Part shown: piece by piece, positions 16,600-58,025 of the stretch
How positions within the stretch are numbered: position 1 is the first letter of the stretch
Layout: the number at the start of each line of letters is the position of its first letter
Virus record (IMG/VR): IMGVR_UViG_3300025133_000036
Coordinates: 68,166-132,165 of that record
DNA: 64,000 bases
DNA from: a virus
Reading direction: 5' to 3' (one strand)
Program-made: the position numbers and the translations under genes
Notes under the pieces: model-generated
Databases searched by the model: none
What the model was told of the DNA's origin: nothing
Seen by the model: only the letters and a program-made list of their open reading frames with translations

Positions 16600-18806
16600 T
16601 GATACCAAAAAAATATAAAACTATGATAGCTGATGCACTAACTAGAGCATCTTATCGTACAAAAAATGGAATGATAGATCTATCAAACGATTTAGATTTA
16701 TTCATAGTTGTTGAAGAATTACGTAAAGAATTTTCGGAAGATATAATTCAAAAAGCGTTATTTATTGAAATTTCTCAAAATGATGATGATTATACAAATA
16801 TTGGCGGTTCTGGTTATGTATTGACAAAAGCTCTCCCAGATGATTGGGACCAAGAAAAAGATGGTATCCCTTCTGATGCTCAACGGTTCACTAAAGGTAA
16901 AGATGGAAAATATAGTTCTTCAGGAAAGGAGAAGAAGGTGAAGGCTACATCACAAGCTTTAAGCCCACAGGATTTTCCAGAAATGGGAGACGAGGGTAAA
17001 CCTGACGTTGATCCAAAACAAGTTGAAAAAGATAAGAAAAAAGCCGAAAAATTAGAAAGAGAAACAGAAGCTAAAAAAGAAGTTGTTAAAACTGAAACGA
17101 GTGGAACACTTGACCAGGTAGCATGGGAAAACGATACAGATCAAGAAGAGTTTCAAACTGCATTTGATAAACTCGTCAATGGTGAAGAGCTCACTGAAGA
17201 AGAACTAGCAATGATAAATAAATATGCAGCCGTAAAAGACAGCGATAGTGAAGCTGCCCTTTATTTGCCAAATCAAACGCCAGGTGATTTTAGACAAGGA
17301 GCAAGGGTTAAAGTAGAATTGGGAGGCAGTGCGGCAGCAAAAAGAGTATTGGCTCAAATGGTTGAAAATGGAATCCAAACTGCAGATCCTGTTACAACAG
17401 CTGAATCAGTACCAGCGAAATTGAAAACAAAAGATGCTACATTAGGTAAAATATCGGGTGGAAAAACAAAATCACATACAATAACAACTGAAAAAGATAA
17501 AGACGGTAGGGTTATTTCTGTAACAGTTGCAGGTAAGGTTATGCGAAGGCAGCTTGAGCCTGATGCTGATGTACTCATTAAAGAAGTTGTTGAAATGATT
17601 GATCAAGGGAAATCTCCCGAAGACGCTGCACGTGAAGCGCAAAAAATCCTTGCTGGAATAAAACGATACAATAATTTAATTGATAAGTACGCATCTGCAG
17701 ATCCTGCAGTAATGGAAACAGTTGAACTCGTCCCAGGCGCGGATGTATCTACACCAGAAGGAAGAAATAGAGTTGCTTCAGAAGGTCCAGGCATAGTAGC
17801 GGATGCATTAGAAAAAATGATAGATGACCCTACTGAAGCTGAACGGAAAGTACTTGATAGGATCAGAAAATTAGGTGATATTGAAGACGCAGAAGAATAT
17901 GAACGTGAAGCCATGGCTATTTTAAAACGTATGGGTGAAATTTCATCTATTAAAAAAGGAGCTCCTGATGTTGCTGAAGCATTAGTATTATGCGCAATGA
18001 ATAAAAAGGGTATACCAACTGTAGCGCCAGCAGGAGAAACTTTTAAGGTTGCAGATTTAATACAATTAGCTGAAGAAGATCTAGATCCTACAGATCCGGA
18101 ATATTTACAAAAATTAGCAGCTGGTGGACCAGTTGTAGTATTTATGACAACTGCTGGTGGATTAAGTGTTAAAAAAGATGGCGGCGCTGCATCAGGGTTT
18201 GAAGCAAAATTAGGAATGACAACGTTTAAGCTTCCTGAAACAAAAAACATGCTAACAGCAATTTTAGACCACCACAATCATGGCATTGCAACTACAAAGA
18301 AGGGTGAAGAGTTATCTCCAACAAGAATAGCGACAGCAAAAAAGAAATTAGATGAAGTTGAAAAATGGGCCAGAGAAAATGATTTAGTTGATGATAACGA
18401 TTTAAAATTTAAAGATGGTAGATCACCGGAAGAATGGGCAACTGATAGCGTTGCGGATTGGCAAGCAAAAGGTACATTACCACCAGATTGTCCAACAAAA
18501 AACGCTAAAGGTGAGTGCCTATCGGACGATAATAAGAAGAATTTGATCGACGGTCTTCACCAATACGCTCGGGGCGGGTTACTAGCTCAAGCAATTCACA
18601 ATAACGATTTAGATTTCCAAGATTATCATAACGCAAACGCAAATACTAGAACTGGTGAAATTGAACTTAGTGATGGAATTGAGTGTTTAAATGATATGCA
18701 ATTTTCTGCTAATCCAGGCTTTAAAATGAAAAAAGATAAAAACGGAAATTTTATAATGCGACCTAACGCTGTTTATGCCGGTAATTTACACAAGCGCTGC
18801 AGATGA
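16599..18806 (+). CDS. large acidic hypothetical protein, possibly with a PD-(D/E)XK-like C-terminal domain
   Basis: 735-aa coupled ORF; E..(P)..D..SVK arrangement (DVAEAL / APAGETFKVADLI / LSVKK). Function is inference only. Confidence 0.6.
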   Translation: MIPKKYKTMIADALTRASYRTKNGMIDLSNDLDLFIVVEELRKEFSEDIIQKALFIEISQNDDDYTNIGGSGYVLTKALPDDWDQEKDGIPSDAQRFTKGKDGKYSSSGKEKKVKATSQALSPQDFPEMGDEGKPDVDPKQVEKDKKKAEKLERETEAKKEVVKTETSGTLDQVAWENDTDQEEFQTAFDKLVNGEELTEEELAMINKYAAVKDSDSEAALYLPNQTPGDFRQGARVKVELGGSAAAKRVLAQMVENGIQTADPVTTAESVPAKLKTKDATLGKISGGKTKSHTITTEKDKDGRVISVTVAGKVMRRQLEPDADVLIKEVVEMIDQGKSPEDAAREAQKILAGIKRYNNLIDKYASADPAVMETVELVPGADVSTPEGRNRVASEGPGIVADALEKMIDDPTEAERKVLDRIRKLGDIEDAEEYEREAMAILKRMGEISSIKKGAPDVAEALVLCAMNKKGIPTVAPAGETFKVADLIQLAEEDLDPTDPEYLQKLAAGGPVVVFMTTAGGLSVKKDGGAASGFEAKLGMTTFKLPETKNMLTAILDHHNHGIATTKKGEELSPTRIATAKKKLDEVEKWARENDLVDDNDLKFKDGRSPEEWATDSVADWQAKGTLPPDCPTKNAKGECLSDDNKKNLIDGLHQYARGGLLAQAIHNNDLDFQDYHNANANTRTGEIELSDGIECLNDMQFSANPGFKMKKDKNGNFIMRPNAVYAGNLHKRCR

Positions 18807-19204
18807 TTAAACTAAAAGGCATATTAATGGAAGATAAGATTGTGGATACCGCCGGTATAATAGTACGTTCAGATGCCGGCATTATTTTATGTAAAGAAAG
18901 AAATAGTGATTATCAATGGGGAATTCCAAAGGGTAAAGTTGACCCAGGTGAAACACCGATACATGCGGCATGCCGTGAGACGCTTGAAGAAGCTTCAATA
19001 TTAGTTAAAGTAAATGGAAGCCATTTAAACACACCGGTCGAGGAAGTTAAAATTGCAAAAAATTCTAGAGGAGGTAAGTTTTTTATCTATGAATGCACTT
19101 TAAAACTATCAATAATACCAAATAAAAGTTTAGAACACGATGAAGTAAAATATTTTAGAAACCTTCCAGAAAATATTGACACACGATTAGAAGGATTATT
19201 ATAA
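18803..19204 (+). CDS. NUDIX hydrolase
   Basis: Nudix box GKVDPGETPIHAACRETLEEA. Confidence 0.92.
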   Translation: MIKLKGILMEDKIVDTAGIIVRSDAGIILCKERNSDYQWGIPKGKVDPGETPIHAACRETLEEASILVKVNGSHLNTPVEEVKIAKNSRGGKFFIYECTLKLSIIPNKSLEHDEVKYFRNLPENIDTRLEGLL

Positions 19205-19593
19205 TGAAAACACAATTACTATGCACTTTTTGCGTAAAACACGAATTTGACACAACTGTTGACCTAATATCTTTAGCTGCAAACGTTGTATTTAATAAAA
19301 TATATGCGTTTGAAAATCTAGACGATCCTCAGCAAATAATTTGTACTTATAATGTAGAAAAATTGGATGACTTTGTTCAAAACAATAAAACAATGGCGAT
19401 CCACCGGAAAAAAGAAACTAATACTTTATATACTATAAATGCTTTAAATGAAGCAATTCGTGAGAATAATGATGGAGTATTAGATAAGTCTTTTTCTTTA
19501 GACTGGTCAATGTATCAAAACAGTTTACTTCTTACGAACGATAAAGGTCTTAACGTTGTAAAAACAAAATTATATAAAATTGTAAACGTCTAG
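19204..19593 (+). CDS. hypothetical phage protein
   Basis: Coupled ORF; QLLCTF..HRKKETNTLYTINALN. Confidence 0.75.
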   Translation: MKTQLLCTFCVKHEFDTTVDLISLAANVVFNKIYAFENLDDPQQIICTYNVEKLDDFVQNNKTMAIHRKKETNTLYTINALNEAIRENNDGVLDKSFSLDWSMYQNSLLLTNDKGLNVVKTKLYKIVNV

Positions 19594-19601
19594 GACCTCC
19601 C

Positions 19602-19835
19602 ATGGAAATTTCAATCGAATATTGTATGCAATGAAATTACGAGCCACGAGCCTTCAGGTTGAGGGACGAACTTGGAATTAAATATCCGAATATTGATGAT
19701 TTTGATATGATACAATCAAAGGGCGGAGTATTCGAAATTAAACAAATAAACTCATCTAGCGATGAAATATTGCTATTTAGTAAAATTGCCACAGGAAGAT
19801 TTCCACATCAAGATGAAATAAAAATAAAGTTATAA
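19602..19835 (+). CDS. SelW/SelT/SelH (Rdx family) selenoprotein with in-frame TGA (Sec) at 19632-19634
   Basis: Reading through the TGA gives MEISIEYCMQ-U-NYEPRAFRLRDEL...GGVFEI...LLFSKIATGRFPHQDEIKIKL (77 aa), with CxxU, GxFEI and FSK..GRFP Rdx motifs; AGGA RBS; SECIS-like hairpin after the TGA. Confidence 0.88.
19651..19665 (+). promoter_or_regulatory. bacterial SECIS-like hairpin
   Basis: CCTTCA-GGT-TGAGGG stem-loop; the G-starting apical loop begins 22 nt after the TGA. Confidence 0.7.
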
Positions 19836-19902
19836 AAAACCTGCTTTTCGCCTTTTAATATTATATATATTTTATTACACTTACAAATGTAATAGTTTTT
19901 TG

Positions 19903-20330
19903 AAAATTTGAATTTTTTGGAAAGTACAGAGGAGTAATTAACTCTGTATGGGATTGGCCGAACAATGAGTGGATGAAGAAGCTCATAAGGCAATCTACCT
20001 TCAGATCTATAGTGGATCGGTATTCGGGCAAAATGCACAATATCTTACGACAGTATTGAGGGCTAATGTACTTCTAGAAAAACTTAAAGAACAGCGATTC
20101 TTTGACCTTGTTGTGGGTAAGGGTAATACCGAAATCCCACCAAGCTGGCTGAATAATCCAAACTTAGAGGGATAAGGCTCCTAACAGAGGTTGTGCTCGC
20201 TCAAATGTAAGGTAACACTTATGAGGAGAATCGACTTAACCGTCGGGGAAAGGGAACAAGGTAGAAAAATCTAAGCTAGAAGTTGTAGTGTAATCGCAAA
20301 TCCTACATCCTACCAAATAATTCAGATTTT
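19903..20330 (+). ncRNA. large (~430 nt) multi-helix structured non-coding RNA, family unassigned
   Basis: Closing helix 19903-19920/20313-20330 (17 of 18 pairs); nested long-range helices 20070-77/20276-83 and 20105-12/20255-62; several local hairpins; promoter-like motif upstream. Confidence 0.75.
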
Positions 20331-20395
20331 GACAATGTAACTGTATATATATTAATGTAAATAAACAATGACAAATAAAAATAGGAGTAAATGTT

Positions 20396-21151
20396 ATGGA
20401 TATTACCGCCATTAAGGCTCGCCTTAATCAACTTCAACAAGTTAATACAAGAACCTCTTCACTGTGGAAACCTTCACCAGGAAAATCTCAAGTGCGTATA
20501 GTACCTTATAAGCACAATCCGGATTCGCCATTTATTGAATTATATTTCCATTATGATATCGGTGAAAGATCATACTTGTCACCTGCATCATTTGGCCGTC
20601 CAGATCCAATTGAAGAATTTGCAGTTAAGTTGAAAACATCTGGAAATAAAGACGATTACAAATTAGGAAGAAAAATCGAGGCTAAAATGCGTACTTTCGC
20701 ACCTGTTATAGTCCGCGGTGAAGAATCCGAAGGTGTAAAGTTTTGGGGTTTTGGTAAAACAGTTTATCAAGAGCTTCTTTCTATCATTGCAGATCCAGAT
20801 TATGGTGATATTACTGATCCAGTAAGTGGTCGCGATATTGTAGTTGAGTTTAAAACTAAAGAAGAAACTGGTAAGTCATTTCCAATGACGGCTGTTCGTG
20901 CAAAACCAAATCAAACTCCGGTAACGGAAGATCCTGAGGTTATGAAGACAATCAAAGACACTCAAAAACAAATTACTGAGATTTACCAAGAGCAATCTTA
21001 TGATGATTTAAAAGAAGTCCTAAGTGGATTTCTAAATCAAGAATCAGAGCTCAGTGATAGTGACTTAAATACTGATGCAGTAAAGACTCCAGTTAAAGCT
21101 GGTAAAACTGAAGATGTATCGAGTGCTTTTGACGATCTATTCAACAACTAG
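20396..21151 (+). CDS. single-stranded DNA-binding protein (T4 gp32-like)
   Basis: WKPSPGKSQVRIVPY, VKFWGFGKTVY, DYGDITDPVSGRDIVV; acidic tail ending AFDDLFNN. Confidence 0.88.
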   Translation: MDITAIKARLNQLQQVNTRTSSLWKPSPGKSQVRIVPYKHNPDSPFIELYFHYDIGERSYLSPASFGRPDPIEEFAVKLKTSGNKDDYKLGRKIEAKMRTFAPVIVRGEESEGVKFWGFGKTVYQELLSIIADPDYGDITDPVSGRDIVVEFKTKEETGKSFPMTAVRAKPNQTPVTEDPEVMKTIKDTQKQITEIYQEQSYDDLKEVLSGFLNQESELSDSDLNTDAVKTPVKAGKTEDVSSAFDDLFNN

Positions 21152-21165
21152 AAACAAATAAACGA

Positions 21166-21191
21166 TTCGGAGCCCTAATTAGGGCTCCGAA
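21166..21191. repeat. perfect 26-bp palindrome / hairpin between ssb and recA
   Basis: TTCGGAGCCCT-AATT-AGGGCTCCGAA; no U-tract follows on the + strand. Confidence 0.85.
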
Positions 21192-21208
21192 CTACAAAGG
21201 GGAATAAT

Positions 21209-32290: not shown

Positions 32291-32363
32291 GGGGCTGTAG
32301 CTCAGTTGGGAGAGCGCCGCACTTGCACTGCGGAGGTCGCAGGTTCGATCCCTGTCAGCTCCA
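32291..32363 (+). tRNA. tRNA-Ala(TGC)
   Basis: GGGGCTG/CAGCTCC acceptor with G3:U70, anticodon arm CCGCA-CTTGCAC-TGCGG, GGTTCGATCCC T-arm; no encoded CCA. Confidence 0.95.
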
Positions 32364-32368
32364 CAAAT

Positions 32369-32439
32369 GTAGAGGTGTCCGAATGGCTAGGTAACGGATT
32401 GCAACCCCGTGTATGTGAGTTCGAATCTCATCCTCTACT
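32369..32439 (+). tRNA. tRNA-Cys(GCA)
   Basis: GTAGAGG/CCTCTAC acceptor, U73 discriminator, anticodon loop TTGCAAC, GAGTTCGAATCTC T-arm. Confidence 0.88.
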
Positions 32440-32460
32440 CAAAATAAAACAAAAAAGTAC

Positions 32461-44319: not shown

Positions 44320-45365
44320 TAGACGTTAAGGTAAGAATTTTAACAAACGATTACCACACTTTTAGACCATACATAAAATCTTTTAATCAATTAGCAACGT
44401 ATGGAATTGAATTAGTTGATTCAGATGCTAAAGATTATGATATTACAATGGTTGGACATTCATTATTCCAGGATAAAAAATTAGGATCGTTTGAAGCGAG
44501 TGTCCAAAAAGGGCTAGATTTTTTAGATAAAATTGAAGGACCTTATATTTTACTTGACAGTCAAGATTCTTCATCAGTAATTGGAGCGTGGGAAACTTTC
44601 ATTGAATCACGAGCTATATGTTTACTTAAAGACACGTTACTAAAGGATAGATCGCTATATAAAGAAGGATGGGTTGGTGGAAGATGGTATTGGGGTAAAT
44701 CTGAAGACTGGGGTATACCTGATCAAAACTATATTCCAAAAGATTGGGATATTCATGAAGATAAACTTTTTTTATCTGGAAAAAACTGGCTTGGTGTAGA
44801 AGATTATAATTTCAATATAGACTGGAAATCAATCGATAAATTATTTGATCTTTCTTTAATGTTTCAATATCCACATCCTGAATGTCATGAATTTGATTTA
44901 AAACCTTCTCAAGATTTTTATTATAATGCATACAGAAAAAGAATATTTGATAAGACTAAAGATTCTCAATACATGATTGCAAAATTAAACAACGGTAAAC
45001 GATTAGACGGGCAAGAATGGTCAAAGTATCAAGCATCGTCAAAAGTTATTTTATCACCGTTTGGTTATGGAGCATACGGAGCTCCACGAGATATTGCTGC
45101 AGTTACGTTAGGATCAATATTGCTTAAAGAAGACTTAAGTTATTTAGACACTTATCCAAATGTTTATCGTCCTGATGAAACATACATTGCATGTAAAAAC
45201 GATTTTAGCGATCTTGAAGAAAAGATCGAATACTGTGTCGAAAACTTTACAGCTCTCAGATCAGAATTAGTAAACAATATGATAACCGCTTATAATCAAG
45301 CATATCATCCTGAATATTTAGCCCAATACACTCATAAACTGTTTAAAAATATAGGAGTGATGTAA
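44316..45365 (+). CDS. putative glycosyltransferase (GT-B-like)
   Basis: SKVILSPFGYG..RD..GSILLK..YIACKNDFSDLEEKI; lies in glycosylation cluster. Confidence 0.65.
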   Translation: MIDVKVRILTNDYHTFRPYIKSFNQLATYGIELVDSDAKDYDITMVGHSLFQDKKLGSFEASVQKGLDFLDKIEGPYILLDSQDSSSVIGAWETFIESRAICLLKDTLLKDRSLYKEGWVGGRWYWGKSEDWGIPDQNYIPKDWDIHEDKLFLSGKNWLGVEDYNFNIDWKSIDKLFDLSLMFQYPHPECHEFDLKPSQDFYYNAYRKRIFDKTKDSQYMIAKLNNGKRLDGQEWSKYQASSKVILSPFGYGAYGAPRDIAAVTLGSILLKEDLSYLDTYPNVYRPDETYIACKNDFSDLEEKIEYCVENFTALRSELVNNMITAYNQAYHPEYLAQYTHKLFKNIGVM

Positions 45366-46393
45366 TGGATACGGATAAAGTAATAATCTTTGGTCCATGG
45401 GTTGGAGAATTTAGTTATGAACTTAGTTGGTGGAATCCGGAGTGTAGAAAAATTAGAGAAGATTATCCAGATCATTGGGCAGTATGTTTAGGATTTAATG
45501 GACGAAATGTCGCGTATGGAGATTTTATTGATGAATATATTCCACACCCATCGGAATTAGAAGCTTCACTCACATATCCTGCTACATTCGGCGAACACCA
45601 AGATAAAACTCTTTCAGGTGATATACCTGTCGTAACGGGCGGAGTTGGAGACGATGTAATTCCTAAACGATTTGTAGATCATCTTGAAAAAATCATTAAA
45701 GAATTTCAATTTAGAGGGTTTAAAGATATAGTTGTTCATAAACCTGGTGATGTTCCTATAACAAGAGAACGATGTTTATCTGATTATCCTTTTGGTCGAT
45801 ATGTACACTATGAAGTAAATAACACTTTATTGTACGATGTAAAAAGCAAAATAAATTCTTATTTTGATAATGATGATCCTACAATATTTTTAATGGCAAG
45901 ACTTAGAAGCCGGGATGACGAACCATGTTATTTAGATTGGCATCCAGATAACTGGCCACTTTTTACTAAAAAAGTTATTGAAGAATTAGGCGTTAATGTT
46001 ATTAGTTTATCGATCAAAACACAAGGTAGCCGCGGTGGAGCACAGGGACTTGCGGGTCATGAATTATTTAAAGATTTACAACATAAGATAATGAATTATG
46101 AAATGGAAAAAGATAATCCTAATTCATTAGAAGAACAGTTAGCTATTTTGAAAAGTACAAAGTGTAGTATTTATGGTGCAAGTGGAGCTGCAGTGGTACC
46201 ATTTTTTGTTAATACACCATCATTTACTCAACAAACAAAGGAAGAAGGTTTTCGTTTAGAATTGGGTTGGGAAAAGGATTTAATGGACTTCAAACACTTT
46301 AAAAACTTTGATAAGTATCATAATAATGATATCTACAATTCACCTGTTGAAGAACTATTTAAAGAGTTTGTAGATTTCTACAAGGAGTTATAA
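45365..46393 (+). CDS. putative glycosyltransferase-like protein
   Basis: GPWVGEFSYE N-terminus; LEEQLAILKS..YGASG resembles a GT9-like C-terminus; cluster context. Confidence 0.5.
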   Translation: MDTDKVIIFGPWVGEFSYELSWWNPECRKIREDYPDHWAVCLGFNGRNVAYGDFIDEYIPHPSELEASLTYPATFGEHQDKTLSGDIPVVTGGVGDDVIPKRFVDHLEKIIKEFQFRGFKDIVVHKPGDVPITRERCLSDYPFGRYVHYEVNNTLLYDVKSKINSYFDNDDPTIFLMARLRSRDDEPCYLDWHPDNWPLFTKKVIEELGVNVISLSIKTQGSRGGAQGLAGHELFKDLQHKIMNYEMEKDNPNSLEEQLAILKSTKCSIYGASGAAVVPFFVNTPSFTQQTKEEGFRLELGWEKDLMDFKHFKNFDKYHNNDIYNSPVEELFKEFVDFYKEL

Positions 46394-46394
46394 C

Positions 46395-47498
46395 ATGGAA
46401 ATAAGAGAAAAAATGCTACCAGTCTTAGGACCTAAGGGTGGAGTTGAAGAAGTTGACGCTCTTAGAGAAGTAATAGAAAGTGGTTGGTGGGGTAAAGGAC
46501 CCAAGGTTGCAGAGTTTGAAGAAAAGTTTGCAGAAATGGTAGGACATAAATATGCATGTGCCGTTACAAGTGCTTCCCATGGTCAAGATTTAGTTATGAA
46601 AGCTATGGGTTGGAAAGGTATTGATGTTATTAATCCTGCAATGTCGTTTATCGCTACTGCAATGATTCCATTATGGAACGGTTATACATCTAATATTGTT
46701 GATGTGACAAGAGATACATTATGTATAGACCCAGTTGAGGTTGAGAAATGGAAAAAACCTAATAGTGAGTTACTGATTGCTGTAAATGAAGCAGGTGTTC
46801 CAGCAGATTATGAAGCTTTAAGAAAAGCATTCGGTGGATTTATACTTGAAGATACAGCACACAGTTGTTATACTCCAGGTGCAGGACAAGGAGGAGACTG
46901 TGCAGTATGGAGTTTTCAAGCAGTGAAAACAATGCCTTGTGGTGATGGAGGAATGATAACAAGTAATGATAAAGAATTAATTGAAAAATGTAGAGAAATG
47001 ACATGGTTTGGAGTTTCATCAACATGGAGTAGAGCACAGGGTGCAAGTGGAAAACCTGGATATTCATGGGATTATCAGGTAGATTTAATAGGTTACAAAT
47101 ACTATATGATAGATATTATGGCCGCAATATGCCTTGAACAAATGAAAAAACTTCCAGCTCATTTGGAATTTCGTAGACATGTTCAATCCCGATATAATGC
47201 TGAATTACCAGAAATTATGGAAAGACCACCACATTCAGAGACAGTACAATATTACGTGTCAAGAGTTCCCGAAGAACATAGAGATAAATTGATTGATTAT
47301 TTAGGCGATAAAAAAATACACACATCTGTACACTTTAAACCGTTATATCTTTATGGACCATTACTTCAAGATAGAAGTTATCCAGTTTGTGATTCAGAAT
47401 GGACAAAACTAATAACTCTTCCTTGTCATAACAGAATGACTGAAGAAGATATTGACTATGTAATTTATTGGGTCAAAAAGTATTTCGGAGAGAGTTAG
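46395..47498 (+). CDS. DegT/DnrJ/EryC1/StrS PLP-dependent sugar aminotransferase
   Basis: GPKVAEFE, EDTAHS, WSFQAVKTMPCGDGGMI. Confidence 0.93.
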   Translation: MEIREKMLPVLGPKGGVEEVDALREVIESGWWGKGPKVAEFEEKFAEMVGHKYACAVTSASHGQDLVMKAMGWKGIDVINPAMSFIATAMIPLWNGYTSNIVDVTRDTLCIDPVEVEKWKKPNSELLIAVNEAGVPADYEALRKAFGGFILEDTAHSCYTPGAGQGGDCAVWSFQAVKTMPCGDGGMITSNDKELIEKCREMTWFGVSSTWSRAQGASGKPGYSWDYQVDLIGYKYYMIDIMAAICLEQMKKLPAHLEFRRHVQSRYNAELPEIMERPPHSETVQYYVSRVPEEHRDKLIDYLGDKKIHTSVHFKPLYLYGPLLQDRSYPVCDSEWTKLITLPCHNRMTEEDIDYVIYWVKKYFGES

Positions 47499-47563
47499 TG
47501 CAATTAGATAGATACTGTTTAGAAATAACCACAAAGATAGGTTGTTCTAATGTTTGTGAGTAA
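47498..47563 (+). pseudogene. truncated radical SAM gene remnant
   Basis: GGAGAG RBS then GTG: MQLDRYCLEITTKIGCSNVCE*, stopping inside a CxxxCxxC-like motif. Confidence 0.55.
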
Positions 47564-47592
47564 TGAATGGCGAACTAAAAAGGGTTATAGAA

Positions 47593-48441
47593 ATGAATGA
47601 CTTGTATAAAATTGAAGGTACATTGAACCATGATAATCATCAATGCTATAATAATCCGAATACGTTTCCACAATTTCAGGAAGGTCTTGAACATTTTAAA
47701 ACCCACATAAAACAACTCGTTGATACTAATTCAAGTGCAACGTTTTATAAATTCGGCGATGGAGATTATAGGTTTCTAAATCAAATACCTGAAGGGAGTG
47801 CTAAACCCGGACAGCGAGCATTAAGTTTACCTTATGATAAAATTGATATTGAAGCACATAGAAAAGGTGCACAGTTATGTGACTTTTATACATGTGAATT
47901 GTATCCTGAGAATCAAAAATGGTTTTCTGAAGTTATCAATAAAGATATAAATTATCCAGCAGAATACGGATATGGACTTGTTGCAAATAGATGGTTTACA
48001 AAAACGTTTGATAGTATAGGATTAATCGGTGCAGGACCTAAAATGGTAATTACCGAGACGTTAATGCACTATCGGGAATACAAAGAGTATTTGGGCTTGG
48101 ATCACTTCACAGATTATATTTATTTTCCTCAAAAATTTGCTGCGGATGATCTTGATAAGTTAGAACGTTTAATGAAACCTAGAATTGAACAGTCAAAATC
48201 TAAATTGTTTTTAGTTGGTATAGGTCATGCAAAAAGTGGAATATTACACAAATTCAAAGAATGGACTGATGCAGTATTTTTAGATGTAGGTGGAGGTATT
48301 GATATGTTAGCTGGCTGTATTAACACAAGACGACCATTTGCCGGCGAATGGAAAAATTTCAGACATCCACAATTTAATTATGATACGATTGATTATATGA
48401 ATTATAATCATGGTAATGAAAAAATGGTAAAAGGATTATGA
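47593..48441 (+). CDS. putative glycosyltransferase-associated protein (GT-D-like)
   Basis: FYKFGDGD, FLVGIGHAK, FLDVGGGID; cluster context; start could be 47563. Confidence 0.55.
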   Translation: MNDLYKIEGTLNHDNHQCYNNPNTFPQFQEGLEHFKTHIKQLVDTNSSATFYKFGDGDYRFLNQIPEGSAKPGQRALSLPYDKIDIEAHRKGAQLCDFYTCELYPENQKWFSEVINKDINYPAEYGYGLVANRWFTKTFDSIGLIGAGPKMVITETLMHYREYKEYLGLDHFTDYIYFPQKFAADDLDKLERLMKPRIEQSKSKLFLVGIGHAKSGILHKFKEWTDAVFLDVGGGIDMLAGCINTRRPFAGEWKNFRHPQFNYDTIDYMNYNHGNEKMVKGL

Positions 48442-49154
48442 AGAATTTAGTTTACATTGTAGCAATCGGAATGGAAGTAAAAGAACATACTGAAAAGGCA
48501 TGGAAATTTTATTGTGAAAAGTATAATTGCGATTTTAAAGTTATAACTAAAGCATCAAGAAAAAATATGGCTCCACATTGGGAACGGTATACTATATTTG
48601 AAAAGTATCCTGGCTATGACAAATACTTATATGTAGATGCAGATGCTATGGTAAAATGGGATGCGCCAAACTTTTTTGAAACGGTGCATTATACACCATC
48701 CGCGATTCACGCCGTTAAAGACATTGGATCACTCGAGTGGGTTTATAACAGTATTTTAGGTTATCAGGACTTATTCCCAAATCAAGACTTGAAATGGTGG
48801 GAATATGTCACAACCGGATGGTTACTGTTCGATAATACACTAAAAGATTTTTTTACTAAAGTAATGAAATTCCATGCGGAGAATAATGAAGAACTTAATT
48901 TGCGACAATACAATACATTAAAGAAAGGCTTCGATCAAACACCAGTAAATTATCTTATTAGACAAGAGAATATTCAGTTAAAAGTATTACCTGAGGTTTT
49001 TTCTCTTGCACACTTACATAAAAAAGATATTTTTCAAAATGGAATGTTTGTAAATCTTCCGGCATATATTTGGCAGTTCAATGGCATACCAAAAGAACAG
49101 CTTCCATATATTATGGAACAATTATGGAATCATGTAAAGGATCAATACAAATGA
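48438..49154 (+). CDS. GT-A glycosyltransferase (GT8/GT34-like)
   Basis: YLYVDADAMV DxD motif, FDQTPVNY. Confidence 0.75.
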   Translation: MKNLVYIVAIGMEVKEHTEKAWKFYCEKYNCDFKVITKASRKNMAPHWERYTIFEKYPGYDKYLYVDADAMVKWDAPNFFETVHYTPSAIHAVKDIGSLEWVYNSILGYQDLFPNQDLKWWEYVTTGWLLFDNTLKDFFTKVMKFHAENNEELNLRQYNTLKKGFDQTPVNYLIRQENIQLKVLPEVFSLAHLHKKDIFQNGMFVNLPAYIWQFNGIPKEQLPYIMEQLWNHVKDQYK

Positions 49155-49987
49155 TGACTTTTTGTATATCTACGTATAACAATTTAGACTATTTGAAGCT
49201 AGCTGTTAAATCTGTTAGAAAAAACTCATATTATAAAGATGCTCCTTTTATTGTTCACGCTGAAAACTGTAATGATGGAACTGATAATTGGTTAGATTCA
49301 AATTTCAAAAAATACAATTTAGAGTACTACATAGATAAAAATGACCCTCCTTTAGGAATTGGCGGCGGAATGAATTTTTGTGCCGATAAGGTACAAACTG
49401 AATTCATAAACTTTTTACATTCAGATTTCTATGTAACAAAAAATTGGGATAAAGCCTTAATGGATATATTTGAAAAGTATCCAGAAGAAAAATTATGGGT
49501 AAATTCACATAGAATAGAGCCTCAAATGTTTTCCGATTCAGAATCTAGACCTGGAACACTTGTCGTATCACAGAATACGTTTGGAGCATATTATAACGAT
49601 TTTGATACTGACTTGTTTGATGAATGGTCAAGTGAATTTGTAAAAATTAATAATTTTGAAATAGCAAAAGGTGAAGGAGTTAGTGGGTTAATAAGAAAAA
49701 AAGATTGGGACGAAATAGGTGGAAATGATCCGCTGTTCGCCCCGGCTAGTTGGGAAGACATGGATTTATTTTTAAGAATGTTAAACAAAGGCTTTAAGTT
49801 TGTTTTACCTTCAACGTCATTAATATGGCATTTTGGCGCTCGAGGAAGTCACAGACTTGAAGAAAACGAAGGTCAAAGTTCTGAGAGACAAATAAAGGCA
49901 GAACAAGACAACGAAACTAAATGGTTAAAAAAATGGGGTAGAATGCCTCAATACGATGAAATAGGATTTATATGCGGACTTCAATGA
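49151..49987 (+). CDS. glycosyltransferase family 2
   Basis: ISTYNNLDYL, DGT, HSD, GGND..WEDMD. Confidence 0.88.
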   Translation: MMTFCISTYNNLDYLKLAVKSVRKNSYYKDAPFIVHAENCNDGTDNWLDSNFKKYNLEYYIDKNDPPLGIGGGMNFCADKVQTEFINFLHSDFYVTKNWDKALMDIFEKYPEEKLWVNSHRIEPQMFSDSESRPGTLVVSQNTFGAYYNDFDTDLFDEWSSEFVKINNFEIAKGEGVSGLIRKKDWDEIGGNDPLFAPASWEDMDLFLRMLNKGFKFVLPSTSLIWHFGARGSHRLEENEGQSSERQIKAEQDNETKWLKKWGRMPQYDEIGFICGLQ

Positions 49988-50430
49988 TATGGCCCGTCAA
50001 AAGACATAATACTTTTGAGGATAATAGAGGATCGTTTACTCCAATGACTGCAGATTTGGATGGAGTAAAATGGGATCAGTTTAATGTTGTAACAAATAAT
50101 AACGCATGGGTTTTTAGGGGAATGCACTATCAAACTGATCCTCCACAAACGAAATCTATTCATGTTATCAAAGGTGAAATTTTAGATTTTGTTTATGATC
50201 TTGAAACAAAAGAAATACAACACTTTCATTTGACACCGAATGAATATTTGCACGTTCCAGATTGTAAGGCTCATGGATATTGTACAATAGTTCCAAATAC
50301 TATAGTTGCATATTTTGTTAAAGGAGCTTATTCTCCCGATTCAGAACATACAATACCATGGCATACACTTCCTGAGATAAAAGAACACCTTCCAATTAGC
50401 AGAATAACAACATCAGATAAGGATAGTTAA
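49984..50430 (+). CDS. rmlC: dTDP-4-dehydrorhamnose 3,5-epimerase
   Basis: FEDNRGSF, RGMHYQ, KGEILDFV, AHGY. Confidence 0.88.
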   Translation: MIWPVKRHNTFEDNRGSFTPMTADLDGVKWDQFNVVTNNNAWVFRGMHYQTDPPQTKSIHVIKGEILDFVYDLETKEIQHFHLTPNEYLHVPDCKAHGYCTIVPNTIVAYFVKGAYSPDSEHTIPWHTLPEIKEHLPISRITTSDKDS

Positions 50431-50431
50431 A

Positions 50432-51607
50432 ATGGTAAGTTTAATAGCACCTTCTTATAATAATTTAAGACATTTAAAAAATTTGGTTGAATCATATAAT
50501 AAATGGGGCCCTGATGATTCGGAATTAATTATTGTTGATGATTATAGTGACGACGGAACAGAAGAATGGGTTACGTCAATAGTAACGGACAAGATTAGAT
50601 TTTATAGGAATAATGATAGGAGAGTTGGACATACAGTATTATACGATTGGGGTATTGAAAAAGCAAAAGGCGATGTTGTAGGTATTCTTCACGCTGATAT
50701 GATTTTAGGTAAAAATTGTATTGAGAATATGCTTAAGCATTTACGCCCGGGAAGTGTAGTGTGCGCTACAAGAGTTGAACCACCATTACATCCTCCATCT
50801 CCTGAAAAAATAATTAAACCTTTTGGAATAGATTTTGATACTTTAGATATACCAATGTTTGATAAGTTTGTAGATCATGCATTAGTTGAATATAAAGATT
50901 TAGTTTCTCAGGGAATGTTTGCTCCATGGATATTATACAAAAAAGATTGGGATGAAGTTGGAGGTCATGATCACGTCCTTGCGCCTTTTCCGTTTGAAGA
51001 TTCCGATATATTTCAAAGATGGCTTATCCATCAATTTCAATTGCTTCAAAGTAAAGATGCCATTGTTTATCATCTTACGTGTAGAGGCCATAAATGGAAC
51101 AAAAAACTTAATGTTGAAGATGACGGATTTGAAGTATTTCAAAGAAACGCTAGTAGAAATTTTACTCGAAAATGGGGAACATGGATTGAAAATGATGAAC
51201 ACTATCATCCTATAGTACATAATAAATATGACATTGGATTTGTAATAAAAAACTGTACAAAGGCAATCCTTACAGGGCTAGAGATATGGGCTTCTGATAT
51301 CTATGTGGATTGTACTAGCGATGACATACAATCATATGTCAAAGAAGAACAACAGACTACAATGTACGATTTAGAATCGAGAGTTCATTCTATAGACGTG
51401 GAAAAGTTAAATGATGTTATTATACATTTTGACGCGGATAAGCTGACTAATGAAAACATTTTATACCCAAACATGTTTAACAAAATACTTGACGATTCAG
51501 GTACAATTGGATCCTTCAAACTTGATATTTTCGATATTAAGATCAAAGAATTAAATCCATTAGTAGAAGATCAATTGCACGTATTTAAAAAGAATGTCGA
51601 TATTTAA
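50432..51607 (+). CDS. glycosyltransferase family 2
   Basis: PSYNNL, VDDYSDDGT, LHADM, FEDSD. Confidence 0.9.
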   Translation: MVSLIAPSYNNLRHLKNLVESYNKWGPDDSELIIVDDYSDDGTEEWVTSIVTDKIRFYRNNDRRVGHTVLYDWGIEKAKGDVVGILHADMILGKNCIENMLKHLRPGSVVCATRVEPPLHPPSPEKIIKPFGIDFDTLDIPMFDKFVDHALVEYKDLVSQGMFAPWILYKKDWDEVGGHDHVLAPFPFEDSDIFQRWLIHQFQLLQSKDAIVYHLTCRGHKWNKKLNVEDDGFEVFQRNASRNFTRKWGTWIENDEHYHPIVHNKYDIGFVIKNCTKAILTGLEIWASDIYVDCTSDDIQSYVKEEQQTTMYDLESRVHSIDVEKLNDVIIHFDADKLTNENILYPNMFNKILDDSGTIGSFKLDIFDIKIKELNPLVEDQLHVFKKNVDI

Positions 51608-51631
51608 TACTATACACATAGGAGAGTTGCA

Positions 51632-52123
51632 ATGGCTAAAAAACCAGCGCCGTTTGAATATAACGGTACATTGATAAAAGTTTTAGATGGAGATACAATT
51701 GATTGTTTCATTGATTTAGGTTTCGATTTAAAAATCAAGAAAAGAATTAGATACATGGGCATCGATACTTGGGAAAGTAGAACTCGTGATAAAGAAGAGA
51801 AAGTAAAAGGTCTTGCAGCTAAAGCTCGTAATAAAGAGTTATTAGAAGCTGGAGTTTTTAAAATTGTATCTTTTGGAACGGGTAAATTCGGAAGAGTTTT
51901 AGGTGAAATATTTGTTTCTCCTGATGCTGTAGGACATGAGATATCAGAAGGTGTTGATACCATTGCCGGCGGATTAGTAAGTATAAATGACATACTAATT
52001 GCAGAAGGTCATGCCTATGAATATCATGGCGGAAAGAAAAAAGATTTTGAAAAAGAAATTGCAAAAGAAAAAGCCGCTAAAAAAGAAGACTTAATCGATA
52101 AACCTGCAGAGGAATCTGCATAG
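51632..52123 (+). CDS. thermonuclease (SNase-like) protein
   Basis: KVLDGDTID, IRYMGIDTWE, GKFGRVLG, INDILIAEGHA. Confidence 0.88.
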   Translation: MAKKPAPFEYNGTLIKVLDGDTIDCFIDLGFDLKIKKRIRYMGIDTWESRTRDKEEKVKGLAAKARNKELLEAGVFKIVSFGTGKFGRVLGEIFVSPDAVGHEISEGVDTIAGGLVSINDILIAEGHAYEYHGGKKKDFEKEIAKEKAAKKEDLIDKPAEESA

Positions 52124-52135
52124 CAAAGGAAAGTG

Positions 52136-52273
52136 ATGAGAAGTATTTCTCAACGCGAGGAAGCTATCTTACGACAACAGTTATTTCTATTATATGGTAG
52201 GAATCCAGGAAAACCGTATATCTGGACACGAGTTATAACGCGCTTCATGAAATGTTTAAACATTCGTAAATGA
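52136..52273 (+). CDS. 45-aa hypothetical protein
   Basis: AAGGA RBS; MRSISQREEAIL...; fills the intergenic gap. Confidence 0.4.
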   Translation: MRSISQREEAILRQQLFLLYGRNPGKPYIWTRVITRFMKCLNIRK

Positions 52274-52274
52274 C

Positions 52275-52304
52275 TTTGGGGTCTGAAAGATCTTTGTTAG
52301 GTTA
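52275..52304 (+). promoter_or_regulatory. putative promoter TTTGGG-N17-TAGGTTA
   Basis: Preceded by TCGTAAATG as in the 59357 and 60777 copies. Confidence 0.6.
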
Positions 52305-52308
52305 GTGT

Positions 52309-52557
52309 ATGCCGACTACATATTATATTATGCTACCAGAAGACGGACAAAATGAATTGCTTTATGAGTCAAATACTTTAGGCGATGAAAGCTTTGGAAC
52401 ATTTTACGCAAATAGTGGAATGAATTCATTATATGAAATCGTAAACAACCATCCCGAGTTATTACCACATACACAAATCGTAGACCAAACCGGTGTAAAA
52501 TTCACAATTACAGAATTCATGGATAAATTAAATGAATGGAAATTAAGGTTCAACTGA
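52309..52557 (+). CDS. hypothetical protein (possibly leaderless)
   Basis: ATG lies just after the putative -10 element; 82 aa. Confidence 0.65.
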   Translation: MPTTYYIMLPEDGQNELLYESNTLGDESFGTFYANSGMNSLYEIVNNHPELLPHTQIVDQTGVKFTITEFMDKLNEWKLRFN

Positions 52558-52568
52558 GGAGAAAGATT

Positions 52569-52736
52569 ATGAGCCAACATTGGACACACTACGTAGAAGA
52601 GTACGAAGAATTAGAACAAAAAGAGCATGTTGATGCGATAAAACATAAAAAACCAAAACTTGGTCATAAAAAAGCCAAACAAATAAAGGAAACAAAAAAA
52701 AATGGGGTCAAATATCCTAAAAAACCTAAGCGTTAG
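52569..52736 (+). CDS. small basic hypothetical protein
   Basis: GAGGAG RBS before ATG 52569. Confidence 0.55.
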   Translation: MSQHWTHYVEEYEELEQKEHVDAIKHKKPKLGHKKAKQIKETKKNGVKYPKKPKR

Positions 52737-53223
52737 TTTCTTATTTTTATTTACTATCGGGTGTGAAGATACTCGTATGGAAGATCCGGGAAATTTTGAC
52801 GATTCCTACGGCACAGTATATGTTTCAGTTGACTCTATACCTGAAATTGTAATAAATGAATCTTCATGGCAAACTCTAAAAACAATATGGGGAGAGTTGA
52901 CATCTGATATTGATGTAACTTATACAAGAGTTGAATGGGATTCTGATATGTTTTGGGTAATAAATGATACGACCGGATATTTTAAAGCTAATTGTAAAAA
53001 ATGTACGGTTGGATTATGGTACGATAATGACGGTACAACTCAGGCAATGGAATATGATTTTCATACTATGGCTCCTGTAACTAATCAAGTCTCGATTGTA
53101 AACGATGAAAGTAAATTTGGTAATGTTCTTGCGCCTGTAAAAGCAATGCGCGGTGATAAAATGTGGCTGTGGTGGTCTATAGCAGGCGTTTATACGGACT
53201 CAATGCAAATTGAATTAAATTAA
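52702..53223 (+). CDS. putative lipoprotein
   Basis: Signal peptide ending FTIGC (lipobox-like). Confidence 0.65.
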   Translation: MGSNILKNLSVSFLFLFTIGCEDTRMEDPGNFDDSYGTVYVSVDSIPEIVINESSWQTLKTIWGELTSDIDVTYTRVEWDSDMFWVINDTTGYFKANCKKCTVGLWYDNDGTTQAMEYDFHTMAPVTNQVSIVNDESKFGNVLAPVKAMRGDKMWLWWSIAGVYTDSMQIELN

Positions 53224-53236
53224 TGGGAGAAATATA

Positions 53237-53503
53237 GTGAAATGGATTTTAGTCAATCGACGAGATGAGATAGTAGATTCATGTGAAATTGCTAGCCAAG
53301 TTGGAGTATCTGGGGCTAGAACATATTTTAAAGGTATAAAACAAATGCAAGACGATAAAGCCTTTGATTCATTGTGGAAAGTAATGTCAAGGGCTGAGTA
53401 TGATAGAATACTGGAGATGGGGTTAAGGAAGCCATCATCACATGGACAAGTAGAATGGTGGAAAGAAGATAAAGAAATAATAGATGAGGAATTAGGTTCG
53501 TGA
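53237..53503 (+). CDS. hypothetical protein
   Basis: GGGAG RBS, GTG start, 88 aa. Confidence 0.65.
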   Translation: MKWILVNRRDEIVDSCEIASQVGVSGARTYFKGIKQMQDDKAFDSLWKVMSRAEYDRILEMGLRKPSSHGQVEWWKEDKEIIDEELGS

Positions 53504-54276: not shown

Positions 54277-54294
54277 TTTATATGGAGATAACAT

Positions 54295-55029: not shown

Positions 55030-55262
55030 CATGCAACATATTGGTACACATGTTCAAAAGTGTACATATATAATGTAACATTTTGATAATATGACCGTTC
55101 AGTAAATCCCATTAGAATAAACTCGGTAAAACACATGCAACAATATCAGCATTTATAGTTTTACTGTTTAAATCCCTGATTTTTGGCATACTTTTTTCAC
55201 TATAATATATAAGAAAGGCATTTGGCTGATCTTGAACTGAAAAAAGTAAAAGGAGAACTGAA

Positions 55263-55922: not shown

Positions 55923-55941
55923 ATTATAAGGAAAAAATACA

Positions 55942-57436: not shown

Positions 57437-57473
57437 TATTACCAAAATAAAATAAAACAAAAGAGAAACATAC

Positions 57474-57815: not shown

Positions 57816-57913
57816 GTTTCATTCCACCAAATTTTTGCAAATATCACAAAAACAATTAGACCTACAATGGTTGGGGACCAATCATATAACCACTGTCCAA
57901 TTAACGATAACAT
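57812..57913 (-). CDS. 33-aa single-TM peptide
   Basis: AGGAG RBS; MLSLIGQWLYDWSPTIVGLIVFVIFAKIWWNET*. Confidence 0.55.
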   Translation of the reverse strand: MLSLIGQWLYDWSPTIVGLIVFVIFAKIWWNET

Positions 57914-58025
57914 CTCTATCTCCTAAAATAGCGAGATACCGCTACCGGTAGTCTTCCGTACCTCGCTAAGTAAATTATTCACGTTACAAATTCGCGGGCC
58001 AAATGACCCGCGAATTCTGATTCCG

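What the first reader, a model, noticed from the sequence alone, without database searches (positions are those of the whole stretch)
19602..19835. Hidden phage-encoded selenoprotein (SelW/Rdx family, CxxU) with bacterial SECIS-like hairpin
Seen: this gap in the ORF track reads ATG GAA ATT TCA ATC GAA TAT TGT ATG CAA TGA AAT TAC GAG CCA CGA... and stays open for 66 sense codons after the TGA, giving IEYCMQ*NYEPRA...GGVFEI...FSKIATGRFP. A hairpin CCTTCA-GGT-TGAGGG has its G-starting loop 22 nt after the TGA. TGA is an ordinary stop elsewhere (e.g. 18804, 27592, 31833), so this is not global recoding. Established: Rdx/SelW proteins have I.YCxxU/C, GxFEV and SK..GRFP motifs, and bacterial SECIS elements lie immediately 3' of the Sec codon. 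Inference: the phage uses host SelA/SelB/tRNA-Sec to make a selenium redox protein near its replication genes. This would restrict the host to Sec-using bacteria. Selenoproteins in phages are rarely described.
Basis: partly seen in the sequence, partly recalled or inferred. Interest (0 to 1): 0.88.

Follow-up and report, generated by a model that had tools for sequence, protein, structure and literature searches.

The report
Selenoprotein gene in a marine phage
An uncultured marine phage carries a small SelW-type redox-protein gene whose internal UGA "stop" is almost certainly read as selenocysteine with the help of a co-evolving RNA hairpin, something I found reported for no virus of bacteria.

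Summary
Window 19602-19835 (+) is a 77-codon frame with one in-frame TGA (19632-19634) at the second redox position of a CxxU motif. Read through, it is a clear Rdx/SelW-like protein: Pfam PF10262 62.5 bits against a cut-off of 22.6, and TIGR02174 above its cut-off.

- **TGA conservation:** a pattern search that left this codon free found TGA in 116 of 117 places, the window's own included (the exception is one TAA). None has Cys or Trp.
- **Hairpin:** the hairpin 22 nt downstream is kept in relatives through compensatory changes at synonymous sites. Its loop starts with a conserved G-U.
- **Selection:** codons after the TGA are under purifying selection (median dN/dS 0.27).
- **No global recoding:** TGA ends 18 of 108 ORFs in this 132-kb virus record.
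- **Phage clade:** AT-rich copies occur only in viral and metagenome contigs. 35 of 56 share genes with this phage, against 0 of 60 GC-rich copies.
- **Sec machinery:** 5 of 5 bacterial genomes tested that carry close homologs encode SelB. The phage record has no selA, selB, selD or tRNA-Sec, so it must use its host's machinery.

The host is unknown and Sec insertion is not shown by experiment. This scan's earlier notes report the same kind of gene in at least 6 other marine phage genomes. Six literature searches found no published report.

The parts
19602..19835 (+). Selenoprotein gene: 77 codons including one Sec codon, plus the TAA stop. Rdx/SelW-like thioredoxin-fold protein.
   Evidence: Translation. 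Pfam PF10262 62.5 bits and TIGR02174 51.8 bits. AF2 model pLDDT 93.2. Foldseek TMq 0.78-0.84 to bacterial SelW-related structures.
19623..19634 (+). Redox motif C-M-Q-U (TGT ATG CAA TGA), in the loop between strand 1 and helix 1.
   Evidence: C8 and position 11 are the only invariant Cys columns in the 62-row alignment. Model secondary structure has E2-8 then H14-27.
19632..19634 (+). In-frame UGA, read as selenocysteine.
   Evidence: TGA in 116 of 117 places found with the codon left free, the window's own included. It aligns with Cys in CxxC homologs. Intact in contigs of two other runs.
19651..19665 (+). SECIS-like hairpin: 6-bp stem CCUUCA/UGAGGG with loop GGU. The loop G is 22 nt after the UGA.
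   Evidence: Pair counts with compensatory changes on 72 distinct rows and on 29 distinct AT-rich rows. Loop positions G32 and U33 are at least 90% conserved.
19592..19595 (+). AGGA, a possible ribosome-binding site 6 nt before the ATG. It overlaps the TAG stop of the upstream ORF.
   Evidence: Read directly from the sequence. Not tested further.

Best explanation
The gene encodes a 77-residue SelW-like (Rdx family) thiol/selenol oxidoreductase with a C-M-Q-U active site. During infection the host's SelB, loaded with Sec-tRNA(Sec), binds the short hairpin that starts 16 nt after the UGA. That hairpin lies inside the coding sequence and has a G-U at the start of its loop. SelB then delivers selenocysteine at the UGA in place of termination, as happens in the bacterial homologs.

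The phage record carries none of the Sec machinery, so the protein can be made only in a Sec-decoding host.

The likely role is inferred, not shown: a fast redox carrier or redox-control protein that serves phage DNA and nucleotide metabolism. It is the only thioredoxin-fold redox protein found in the held record, and it sits in the replication/RNR module.

Shown: the frame, family, fold, TGA conservation, hairpin covariation, purifying selection, absence of global recoding, and the phage context. Inferred: SelB dependence, Sec insertion itself, and the function.
For: - Family and fold: PF10262 E 4.2e-17, 62.5 bits against 22.6. TIGR02174 51.8 bits against 34.2. The profile of the family hits 8 solved Rdx/SelW structures, best 2fa8 at 3.6e-18. 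The AF2 model has pLDDT 93.2. Foldseek top hits are all bacterial SelW-related proteins, TMq 0.78-0.84.
- TGA conservation: viral contigs 8 of 8, metagenome contigs 81 of 82, species genomes 26 of 26.
- Hairpin: on 72 distinct rows, 59 cells carry changes on both sides against 14.6 in shuffles (0 of 500 shuffles reach the observed value), and the true register beats all six slid registers.
- Hairpin within the AT-rich (phage) rows: pair 27-39 is C-G 12, U-A 16, mismatch 1. Pair 30-36 is C-G 18, U-A 11, mismatch 0. All four of these columns are synonymous third codon positions.
- Translation past the TGA: median dN/dS is 0.274 downstream, and 396 of 426 pairs are below 0.5.
- TGA is a normal stop: 18 of 108 ORFs end in it. 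Two AT-rich and 13 GC-rich family members end their own gene with a second TGA.
- SelB is above its cut-off in 5 of 5 bacterial carriers tested, out of 26 found.
- Phage context: terminase, portal and major head protein are in the same record. 35 of 56 AT-rich loci share proteins with this phage, against 0 of 60 GC-rich loci.
Against: - No experiment shows Se incorporation.
- The host is unknown. The nearest cultured relatives by capsid and RecA infect Microcystis and Flavobacterium. I did not test whether such hosts decode Sec.
- The record is only about 70% complete, so absence of sel genes is not proven.
- The hairpin is not exceptional in energy and matches no Rfam SECIS model.
- One relative (L011) has TAA at the position.
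- One AT-rich row has a C-A mismatch at pair 27-39 and one at pair 26-40.
- The pattern search required the flanking residues EYCMQ and NYEP, so it could not find diverged Cys forms. '116 of 117' therefore describes this subfamily only.
- NF041051 (the Campylobacter equivalog) scores 76.4, below its cut-off of 88.
Confidence: 0.85

Rival explanations
1. SelB-independent read-through. The host has no Sec system, and the UGA is read at low level by a near-cognate tRNA (Trp or Cys), giving a CxxW or CxxC protein. The hairpin would only slow termination.
For: The host is unknown. The cultured relatives infect a cyanobacterium and a Flavobacterium. A preprint (10.64898/2026.04.03.716425) reports no selC in 135 Pelagibacter genomes, a very abundant AT-rich marine group, though nothing links these phages to that host (passages). 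The phage carries its own canonical tRNA-Cys(GCA).
Against: The same motif, hairpin and G-U loop occur in bacterial genomes that encode SelB (5 of 5 tested). If Cys or Trp were the intended residue, a one-base change would fix it, yet 0 of 117 places have TGY or TGG. The phage tRNA-Cys has an ordinary 7/5 cloverleaf and a GCA anticodon.
Confidence: 0.07
2. Two products. Translation stops at the UGA, and the downstream part is made separately from the TTG at 19659 as the 58-aa protein that gene callers predict.
For: Gene callers give exactly this 58-aa product (P0001).
Against: The 10 codons before the TGA supply strand 1 and the first Cys of the fold, and they are nearly invariant in all relatives. 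The Rdx HMM aligns across the TGA, residues 2-74. In relatives the codon aligned with the window's TTG is most often AGT or CGT, so no start is conserved there.
Confidence: 0.03
3. Global recoding of TGA (code 4 or code 25) in this phage or its host.
For: Public protein sets write W at this position in 33 of the 52 listed relatives. This suggests some pipelines called these short contigs with TGA = Trp.
Against: The standard code gives 94% coding cover, with 18 of 108 ORFs ending in TGA, several in ATGA overlaps. Family genes use TGA as their own stop. The position is the catalytic Cys/Sec of the family.
Confidence: 0.01
4. A pseudogene or a sequencing error.
For: One relative has TAA at the site (L011).
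Against: 116 of 117 places have TGA. Purifying selection acts downstream of it. The TGA is identical in contigs of two other runs, one of them from another study.
Confidence: 0.01

Closest known systems
Bacterial SelW-like selenoproteins (Rdx family: Pfam PF10262, NCBIfam TIGR02174 CXXU_selWTH). The GOS survey lists this as the most abundant marine selenoprotein family, with 427 Sec and 56 Cys forms (PMC2398784, passages).
   Same: Size, CxxU motif after strand 1, the GGxFE and SK..GRFP motifs, and a SECIS hairpin inside the coding sequence right after the UGA with a conserved loop G. Close bacterial homologs share the exact EYCMQ-U-NYEP core.
   Different: This one is carried by a phage of about 190 kb, inside its replication module. 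The AT-rich copies were found in no bacterial species genome: 0 of 26 genome hits are AT-rich. The hairpin is a 6-bp stem with a 3-nt GUU or GGU loop, whereas most GC-rich copies have 5 bp and a 5-nt loop.
Solved Cys-form bacterial Rdx proteins: 2fa8 (Atu0228), 2obk, 2oka, 3dex, 2p0g.
   Same: The fold (TMq 0.78-0.84, rmsd 1.3-2.0 A) and the aligned CxxC position.
   Different: They have Cys where this gene has UGA. Sequence identity is 25-31%. Their biochemical function is also unknown.
Selenoproteins of eukaryotic viruses, i.e. the glutathione peroxidases of molluscum contagiosum virus and fowlpox virus. This is recalled from memory and comes from no call.
   Same: A virus-borne selenoprotein that depends wholly on the host's Sec machinery.
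   Different: A different protein family, and a eukaryotic SECIS in the 3' UTR rather than a hairpin in the coding sequence. The hosts are animals.
Phage T4 NrdC thioredoxin and phage glutaredoxins, which act as reductants of phage ribonucleotide reductase. Recalled from memory.
   Same: A small thioredoxin-fold redox protein encoded next to nucleotide-metabolism genes. The held record has no Trx or Grx domain of its own, but it does have a class II RNR.
   Different: A different family, with no selenium. A link between this protein and the RNR is only my inference.
Escherichia coli fdhF SECIS, the SelB-binding hairpin with G and U in the apical loop. Recalled from memory. The conserved loop guanosine in bacterial SECIS elements is stated in PMC2398784 (figure legend).
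   Same: Position just 3' of the UGA, within the reading frame, and a conserved G-U at the start of the loop.
   Different: Shorter, with no bulged U, and SelB binding was not tested.

Membership tests
Rdx family (Pfam PF10262) / TIGR02174 CXXU_selWTH | HMM score above the curated cut-off | tested here: met
   PF10262 62.5 bits against 22.6. TIGR02174 51.8 bits against 34.2.
Rdx family (Pfam PF10262) / TIGR02174 CXXU_selWTH | CxxC or CxxU motif between strand 1 and helix 1 | tested here: met
   C8-M-Q-U11. Both columns are invariant in 62 rows. The model has E2-8 and H14-27.
Rdx family (Pfam PF10262) / TIGR02174 CXXU_selWTH | Thioredoxin-like fold as in solved members | tested here: met
   pLDDT 93.2. 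Foldseek hits 2oka, 2obk, 2fa8, 3dex and 2p0g at TMq 0.78-0.84, E as low as 6e-6.
NF041051 SelTWH_Campy (equivalog) | Score above the equivalog cut-off | tested here: not met
   76.4 bits against a cut-off of 88. It is a relative of that equivalog, not a member.
Bacterial selenoprotein gene | In-frame UGA aligned with Cys in homologs and conserved among close relatives | tested here: met
   116 of 117 places have TGA. 15 of the 52 listed homologs have Cys there. Solved CxxC proteins align to the same position.
Bacterial selenoprotein gene | SECIS hairpin just 3' of the UGA with a conserved loop G, supported by covariation | tested here: met
   Its energy alone is unremarkable, and there is no Rfam SECIS hit.
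Bacterial selenoprotein gene | Sec machinery (selA, selB, selC, selD) available in the translating cell | not testable with these tools
   The host is unknown. The phage record has none of these genes. Bacterial carriers of close homologs have SelB, 5 of 5 tested.
Bacterial selenoprotein gene | Selenium in the protein | not testable with these tools
   Needs 75Se labelling or mass spectrometry.
Phage (virus of bacteria) gene | Lies on a contig with phage hallmark genes and is syntenic in related phage contigs | tested here: met
   Terminase, portal and major head protein are present. gp32, RecA and DnaB are neighbours. The gene holds the same position upstream of gp32 in L009, L062, L049, L008, L013 and L030.

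The most novel reading that the evidence does not exclude
The hosts of this phage lineage do not themselves decode Sec. Its nearest cultured relatives infect a cyanobacterium and a Flavobacterium. In that case the phages would either bring the missing parts of the Sec system in the unsequenced third of their genomes, or use a SelB-independent way of reading a hairpin-marked UGA.

A milder version follows directly from the evidence and would still be new. A sizeable share of the ocean's most abundant selenoprotein family is phage-encoded, so infection creates a viral demand for selenium.
Probability: 0.08. Interest if true: 0.92.

Novelty: new variant of a known kind. Interest (0 to 1): 0.82.

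Why it matters
- **First of its kind in print, as far as I could search.** Selenoproteins are known from cells and from a few animal viruses. Six full-text searches found none reported from viruses of bacteria.
- **A whole clade, hidden from annotation.** Here it is a clade of marine phage contigs (37 distinct full-length AT-rich variants; hits related to Mel-JY01 for those tested). Standard gene callers cut the gene at the UGA, so it never appears in annotation: no PHROG family, no hit in 50,697 deposited phage genomes, and no match in BFVD.
- **It ties the phage to a host trait.** Phage fitness would depend on the host's recoding machinery and on selenium supply. That gives a sequence marker for narrowing the host range.
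- **It affects published surveys.** Some of the 'SelW-like' reads that dominate marine selenoproteome surveys (PMC2398784; PMC9402790) may be viral.

Tried and rejected
- **Single-sequence folding.** The hairpin is not thermodynamically special, so I dropped energy as evidence and used covariation.
- **Rfam.** No SECIS family matched. I read this as uninformative, because the Actinomarina preprint (passage) says bacterial SECIS elements are poorly represented in Rfam.
- **The search for related loci with the protein in viral contigs.** It found nothing confirmed by tblastn, probably because back-translated patterns cannot contain TGA. I replaced it with a DNA pattern that left the codon free.
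- **Transcription.** Two metatranscriptome runs (X10, X16) were laid on 18800-21200. Their contigs do not cover 19602-19835. This says nothing either way.
- **Host identity.**
  - The five related viral records hold no tRNA-Sec above the cut-off.
  - A tblastn with a bacterial SelB against deposited phages gave 22 records. None is marine or Mel-JY01-like, and several look like bacterial DNA filed as phage.
  - One run labelled with a single coded organism (X4) holds an identical 2-kb contig at depth 2. I did not try to decode it.
- **A second selenoprotein gene in the record.** A scan for TGA-read-through frames in ORF gaps gave no other credible candidate.
- **A dedicated reductant for the class II RNR.** This remains only an inference. 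I ran no complex prediction because I do not claim binding.
- **Tree.** AT-rich rows fall on one side of a branch, but with weak support (60/75, and 58% of bootstrap trees). I therefore do not claim a single acquisition. Rows shorter than 60 residues were left out of the tree. L089 (wrong start) and rows without a found start were left out of the alignments.
- **Supplements.** The supplementary tables of PMC9402790 (viral share per family) and of the Actinomarina preprint (sequence of its uncharacterised 78-aa selenoprotein family) may bear on host and novelty.

Full report
**The stretch itself.** Window 19602-19835 (+) begins with ATG and carries TGA at 19632-19634, then runs open for 66 more codons to TAA at 19833. 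Standard ORF calling sees only a 58-aa piece that starts at a TTG at 19659. Public protein sets hold that same piece (P0001). An AGGA lies 6 nt before the ATG and overlaps the TAG of the upstream ORF.

**What the record is.** The window is the last 64 kb of a 132,165-base IMG/VR virus record, with no end repeats and a CheckV completeness estimate of 70%.
- GC is 36%. 105 of 108 ORFs of at least 80 aa lie on one strand, and they cover 94% of the record.
- The first half holds the large terminase, portal and major head protein.
- Around the finding lie a PolA-like fragment, NUDIX, gp32, RecA, 5'-3' exonuclease, a DnaB-like helicase and class II RNR. A family-B-type DNA polymerase lies further on.
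- The nearest deposited phages are distant. The major head protein is 54% identical to an uncultured 484-kb phage, 51% to Microcystis phage Mel-JY01 and 50% to the Flavobacterium 'immuto' phages. RecA is 51.5% identical to Mel-JY01. The polymerase is only about 26% identical to cyanomyophage gp43.
- No DNA-level match was found.

**Family and fold.** Read through, the 77 residues match Pfam Rdx (E 4.2e-17, 62.5 bits, cut-off 22.6; residues 2-74, so the match runs across the TGA).
- TIGR02174 scores 51.8 bits against a cut-off of 34.2. NF041051 scores 76.4, below its cut-off of 88.
- No PHROG family matches.
- A profile of 62 relatives (A3) hits eight solved Rdx/SelW proteins, from 2fa8 at 3.6e-18 to mouse SelW 2npb at 3.2e-8. 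Their CxxC aligns with C-M-Q-U.
- The AlphaFold model has mean pLDDT 93.2, with strand 2-8, helix 14-27, three strands and short helices.
- Its best Foldseek matches in the PDB are all bacterial SelW-related proteins (TMq 0.78-0.84). Ordinary thioredoxin-like folds follow only at E > 0.02.
- In the library of predicted viral structures nothing reaches E 0.001.
- A tblastn against 50,697 deposited phage genomes finds no relative at E 0.01.

**Is the TGA kept?** I scanned three collections with a pattern for E-Y-C-M-Q-x-N-Y-E-P in which the codon in question was NNN.
- Viral contigs: 8 of 8 have TGA.
- Metagenome contigs: 81 of 82 have TGA. One has TAA (L011), and its near-identical relatives L063 and L116 have TGA.
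- One genome per species: 26 of 26 have TGA.
- No hit has TGY or TGG.

Caveats apply. The pattern fixes the flanking residues, so this describes one subfamily. Several loci are the same contig held in two collections. More distant relatives do use Cys. Among the 52 proteins returned by the two protein searches, 15 have C at the position, 33 are written with W, one has S, two are C-terminal pieces and one is an unrelated long protein. Some of them, however, match loci in which I see TGA. P0027 matches L043 over its first 56 residues, and P0002 is almost the same protein as the one in L013. W is therefore most likely a gene-caller's reading of TGA.

**Is the hairpin real?** The 82 distinct 66-nt stretches, cut to 48 nt starting at the Met codon of the motif, align without gaps; 72 of the 48-nt rows are distinct (A2). 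I counted the stem at columns 26-31/35-40 plus one optional outer pair.
- 80.4% of cells pair, against 66.4% in shuffles.
- 59 cells carry changes on both sides, against 14.6 in shuffles (0 of 500 shuffles reach this).
- The covariation score is 0.395, against 0.068-0.277 for the six slid registers.
- The five inner pairs are each paired in at least 93% of rows.
- The outer pair 25-41 holds in only 12 of 72 rows. The innermost pair 31-35 fails in 29 of 72 rows, mostly GC-rich copies, which then have a 5-nt loop.
- Among the 29 distinct AT-rich rows every one of the six pairs is at least 97% paired.
- Pair 27-39 joins the third base of an Ala codon with the third base of an Arg/Lys codon. It reads C-G in 12 rows, U-A in 16 and C-A in 1.
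- Pair 30-36 joins the third bases of a Leu/Phe codon and a Leu codon. It reads C-G in 18 rows and U-A in 11, with no mismatch.
- Covariation between synonymous sites cannot come from selection on the protein.
- Loop positions 1 and 2 are G and U in at least 90% of rows. [quoted passage not shown] The fuller bSECISearch rules and the E. coli fdhF details are recalled from memory, not taken from a call.
- The shuffle control ignores relatedness, so the slid-register control and the synonymous-site pattern carry more weight.

**Is the part after the TGA translated?** In the 37 distinct full-length AT-rich genes, pairwise dN/dS over the codons after the TGA has a median of 0.274. 396 of 426 pairs with dS between 0.05 and 3 are below 0.5. 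For the window's copy the values are 0.14-0.40.

**Is TGA recoded globally?** No.
- 18 of 108 ORFs end in TGA, and read-through would add 0-40 codons to them.
- Two AT-rich and 13 GC-rich family genes end with a second TGA.
- No other TGA-containing frame in an ORF gap looks like a gene.

**Independent reads.** A contig of another study's run (X2) covers 19406-20124 with one difference, at 20002. A contig of run X4 covers 19202-21159 with none. The TGA is therefore not an assembly error.

**Phage or bacterium?** The pattern hits fall into two groups by GC.
- All 26 genome hits and 34 metagenome hits have GC 0.48-0.70. The named ones are MAGs of Gamma- and Alphaproteobacteria and Planctomycetota.
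- 56 loci have GC 0.29-0.41 and come only from viral and metagenome contigs.
- 35 of these 56 share at least one protein with this phage at E 1e-5, and 18 share at least two. None of the 60 GC-rich loci does.
- Of the 21 without a hit, five are IMG/VR records and most of the rest are under 3.5 kb. One short locus, L046 (GC 0.413), has the bacterial type of hairpin.
- L004 has a baseplate wedge protein 46.5% identical to Mel-JY01's.
- L047 has a CobT-like protein shared with the same uncultured 484-kb phage.
- In L009, L062, L049, L008, L013 and L030 the gene sits where it does here, just upstream of gp32. In others it lies near homologs of window ORFs 60856 and 51632.
- In a tree of 89 proteins the AT-rich rows need only one change of label, but support is weak (60/75). 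They sit with the Pseudomonadota rows in a group supported at 95/88.

**Machinery.**
- The held record has only tRNA-Ala(UGC) and a canonical tRNA-Cys(GCA).
- It has no tRNA-Sec above the cut-off (best 23 bits against 47, and that is the tRNA-Ala).
- It has no selB, selD or selA.
- Five related viral records, each 11-27% complete, also lack tRNA-Sec.
- Five bacterial genomes with close homologs, picked from the 26, all encode a full-length SelB at 350-435 bits against a cut-off of 242.
- The simplest reading is that the phage gene is decoded by the host's SelB system, as in those bacteria.

**Function.** The family's biochemical role is unsettled even in cells. In this record no thioredoxin or glutaredoxin domain was found, while a class II RNR is present. 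I therefore suggest, as an inference only, that the protein serves as a redox carrier for phage nucleotide or DNA metabolism.

**Host.** The host is unknown.
- A preprint reports universal Sec machinery in Actinomarina (GC about 33%), with an uncharacterised 78-aa family as its commonest selenoprotein. It reports no selC in 135 Pelagibacter genomes (10.64898/2026.04.03.716425, passages).
- That makes Actinomarina-like hosts conceivable and SAR11 unlikely. Nothing here links the phage to either.

**Literature.** I ran six full-text searches of the held library. None found a paper that reports a selenoprotein encoded by a bacteriophage.
- PMC2398784 (GOS selenoproteome): the word 'phage' does not occur.
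- PMC9402790: passages say that families other than RNR II, plastocyanin and Cu-Zn SOD have few or no viral sequences.
- PMC10747093: passages mention predicted tRNA-Sec genes in huge wastewater phages and speculate about Sec use, without naming a selenoprotein.
- PMC5389517: passages describe unusual tRNAs in phages, not selenoproteins.
- PMC7029224: the only occurrence is a reference-list entry.
- PMC5029168: passages only.
- Subscription journals are not covered by the library.

**Earlier notes of this scan.** These are AI notes that I have not checked. They report the same kind of gene in at least six other marine phage genomes. This copy adds a record whose nearest deposited phages are Mel-JY01 and the Flavobacterium 'immuto' phages. 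It also adds the synonymous-site covariation, the SelB control and the dN/dS test.

**Verdict.** This is a genuine phage-borne SelW-like selenoprotein gene with a functional-looking bacterial SECIS (confidence 0.85). The kind of gene and the mechanism are known. The carrier, and what that implies, are new.

Noticed in passing
window 20112-20316 (+); also L008 629-824, L013 8343-8544 (-), L030 1743-1938: A manA-RNA-like structure (Rfam RF01745) lies between the selenoprotein gene and gp32. It spans the full model length and scores 40.5-51.2 bits, below the gathering score of 55.2, with E from 1.6e-8 to 2.5e-10. It is present in 3 of the 4 syntenic relatives searched and absent in L009, where the gap is about 75 nt. 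Its roughly 45-nt core (20093-20141) has the highest depth in two metatranscriptome runs, from contigs that run on unlike this phage.
   Followed up: partly
window 19176-19205 (+): A perfect sigma-70 consensus match (TTGACA, 18 nt, TATAAT; 12 of 12) ends at the start of ORF 19204-19593, about 400 nt upstream of the selenoprotein gene. The overall count of promoter-like sites is not above shuffles, at 11 against 7.8.
   Followed up: no
window 32291-32440 (+): The record's only two tRNA genes are tRNA-Ala(UGC) and a canonical 7/5 tRNA-Cys(GCA), 4 nt apart. A Cys tRNA in a phage with a CxxU gene is a coincidence worth recording. Nothing suggests that it reads UGA.
   Followed up: partly
public protein sets, P0002-P0052: 33 of the 52 listed SelW-like relatives are written with W at the Sec position. 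This is probably TGA read as Trp by gene callers on short contigs, and such entries hide selenoproteins as apparent CxxW proteins.
   Followed up: partly
G000:C1 10074-26006 (before the window): A single open frame of 5,310 codons lies in the structural half of the record. Earlier first-reader notes describe giant collagen-like proteins further on in the structural half, at 45357-61704.
   Followed up: no
run X4 (coded 'organism A'), window 19202-21159: A run labelled with a single organism, not a metagenome, holds a 2-kb contig identical to the window at depth 2. It could be a culture or host-associated sample that contains this phage. I did not decode it.
   Followed up: no
window 60856-62904 and 51632-52123: A 682-aa protein gives weak hits to a PHROG of unknown function, and its L047 homolog hits a cobalamin-biosynthesis (CobT-like) family. 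There is also a 163-aa endonuclease. In many related contigs these are the neighbours of the selenoprotein gene, so the gene has at least two genomic settings in this clade.
   Followed up: partly
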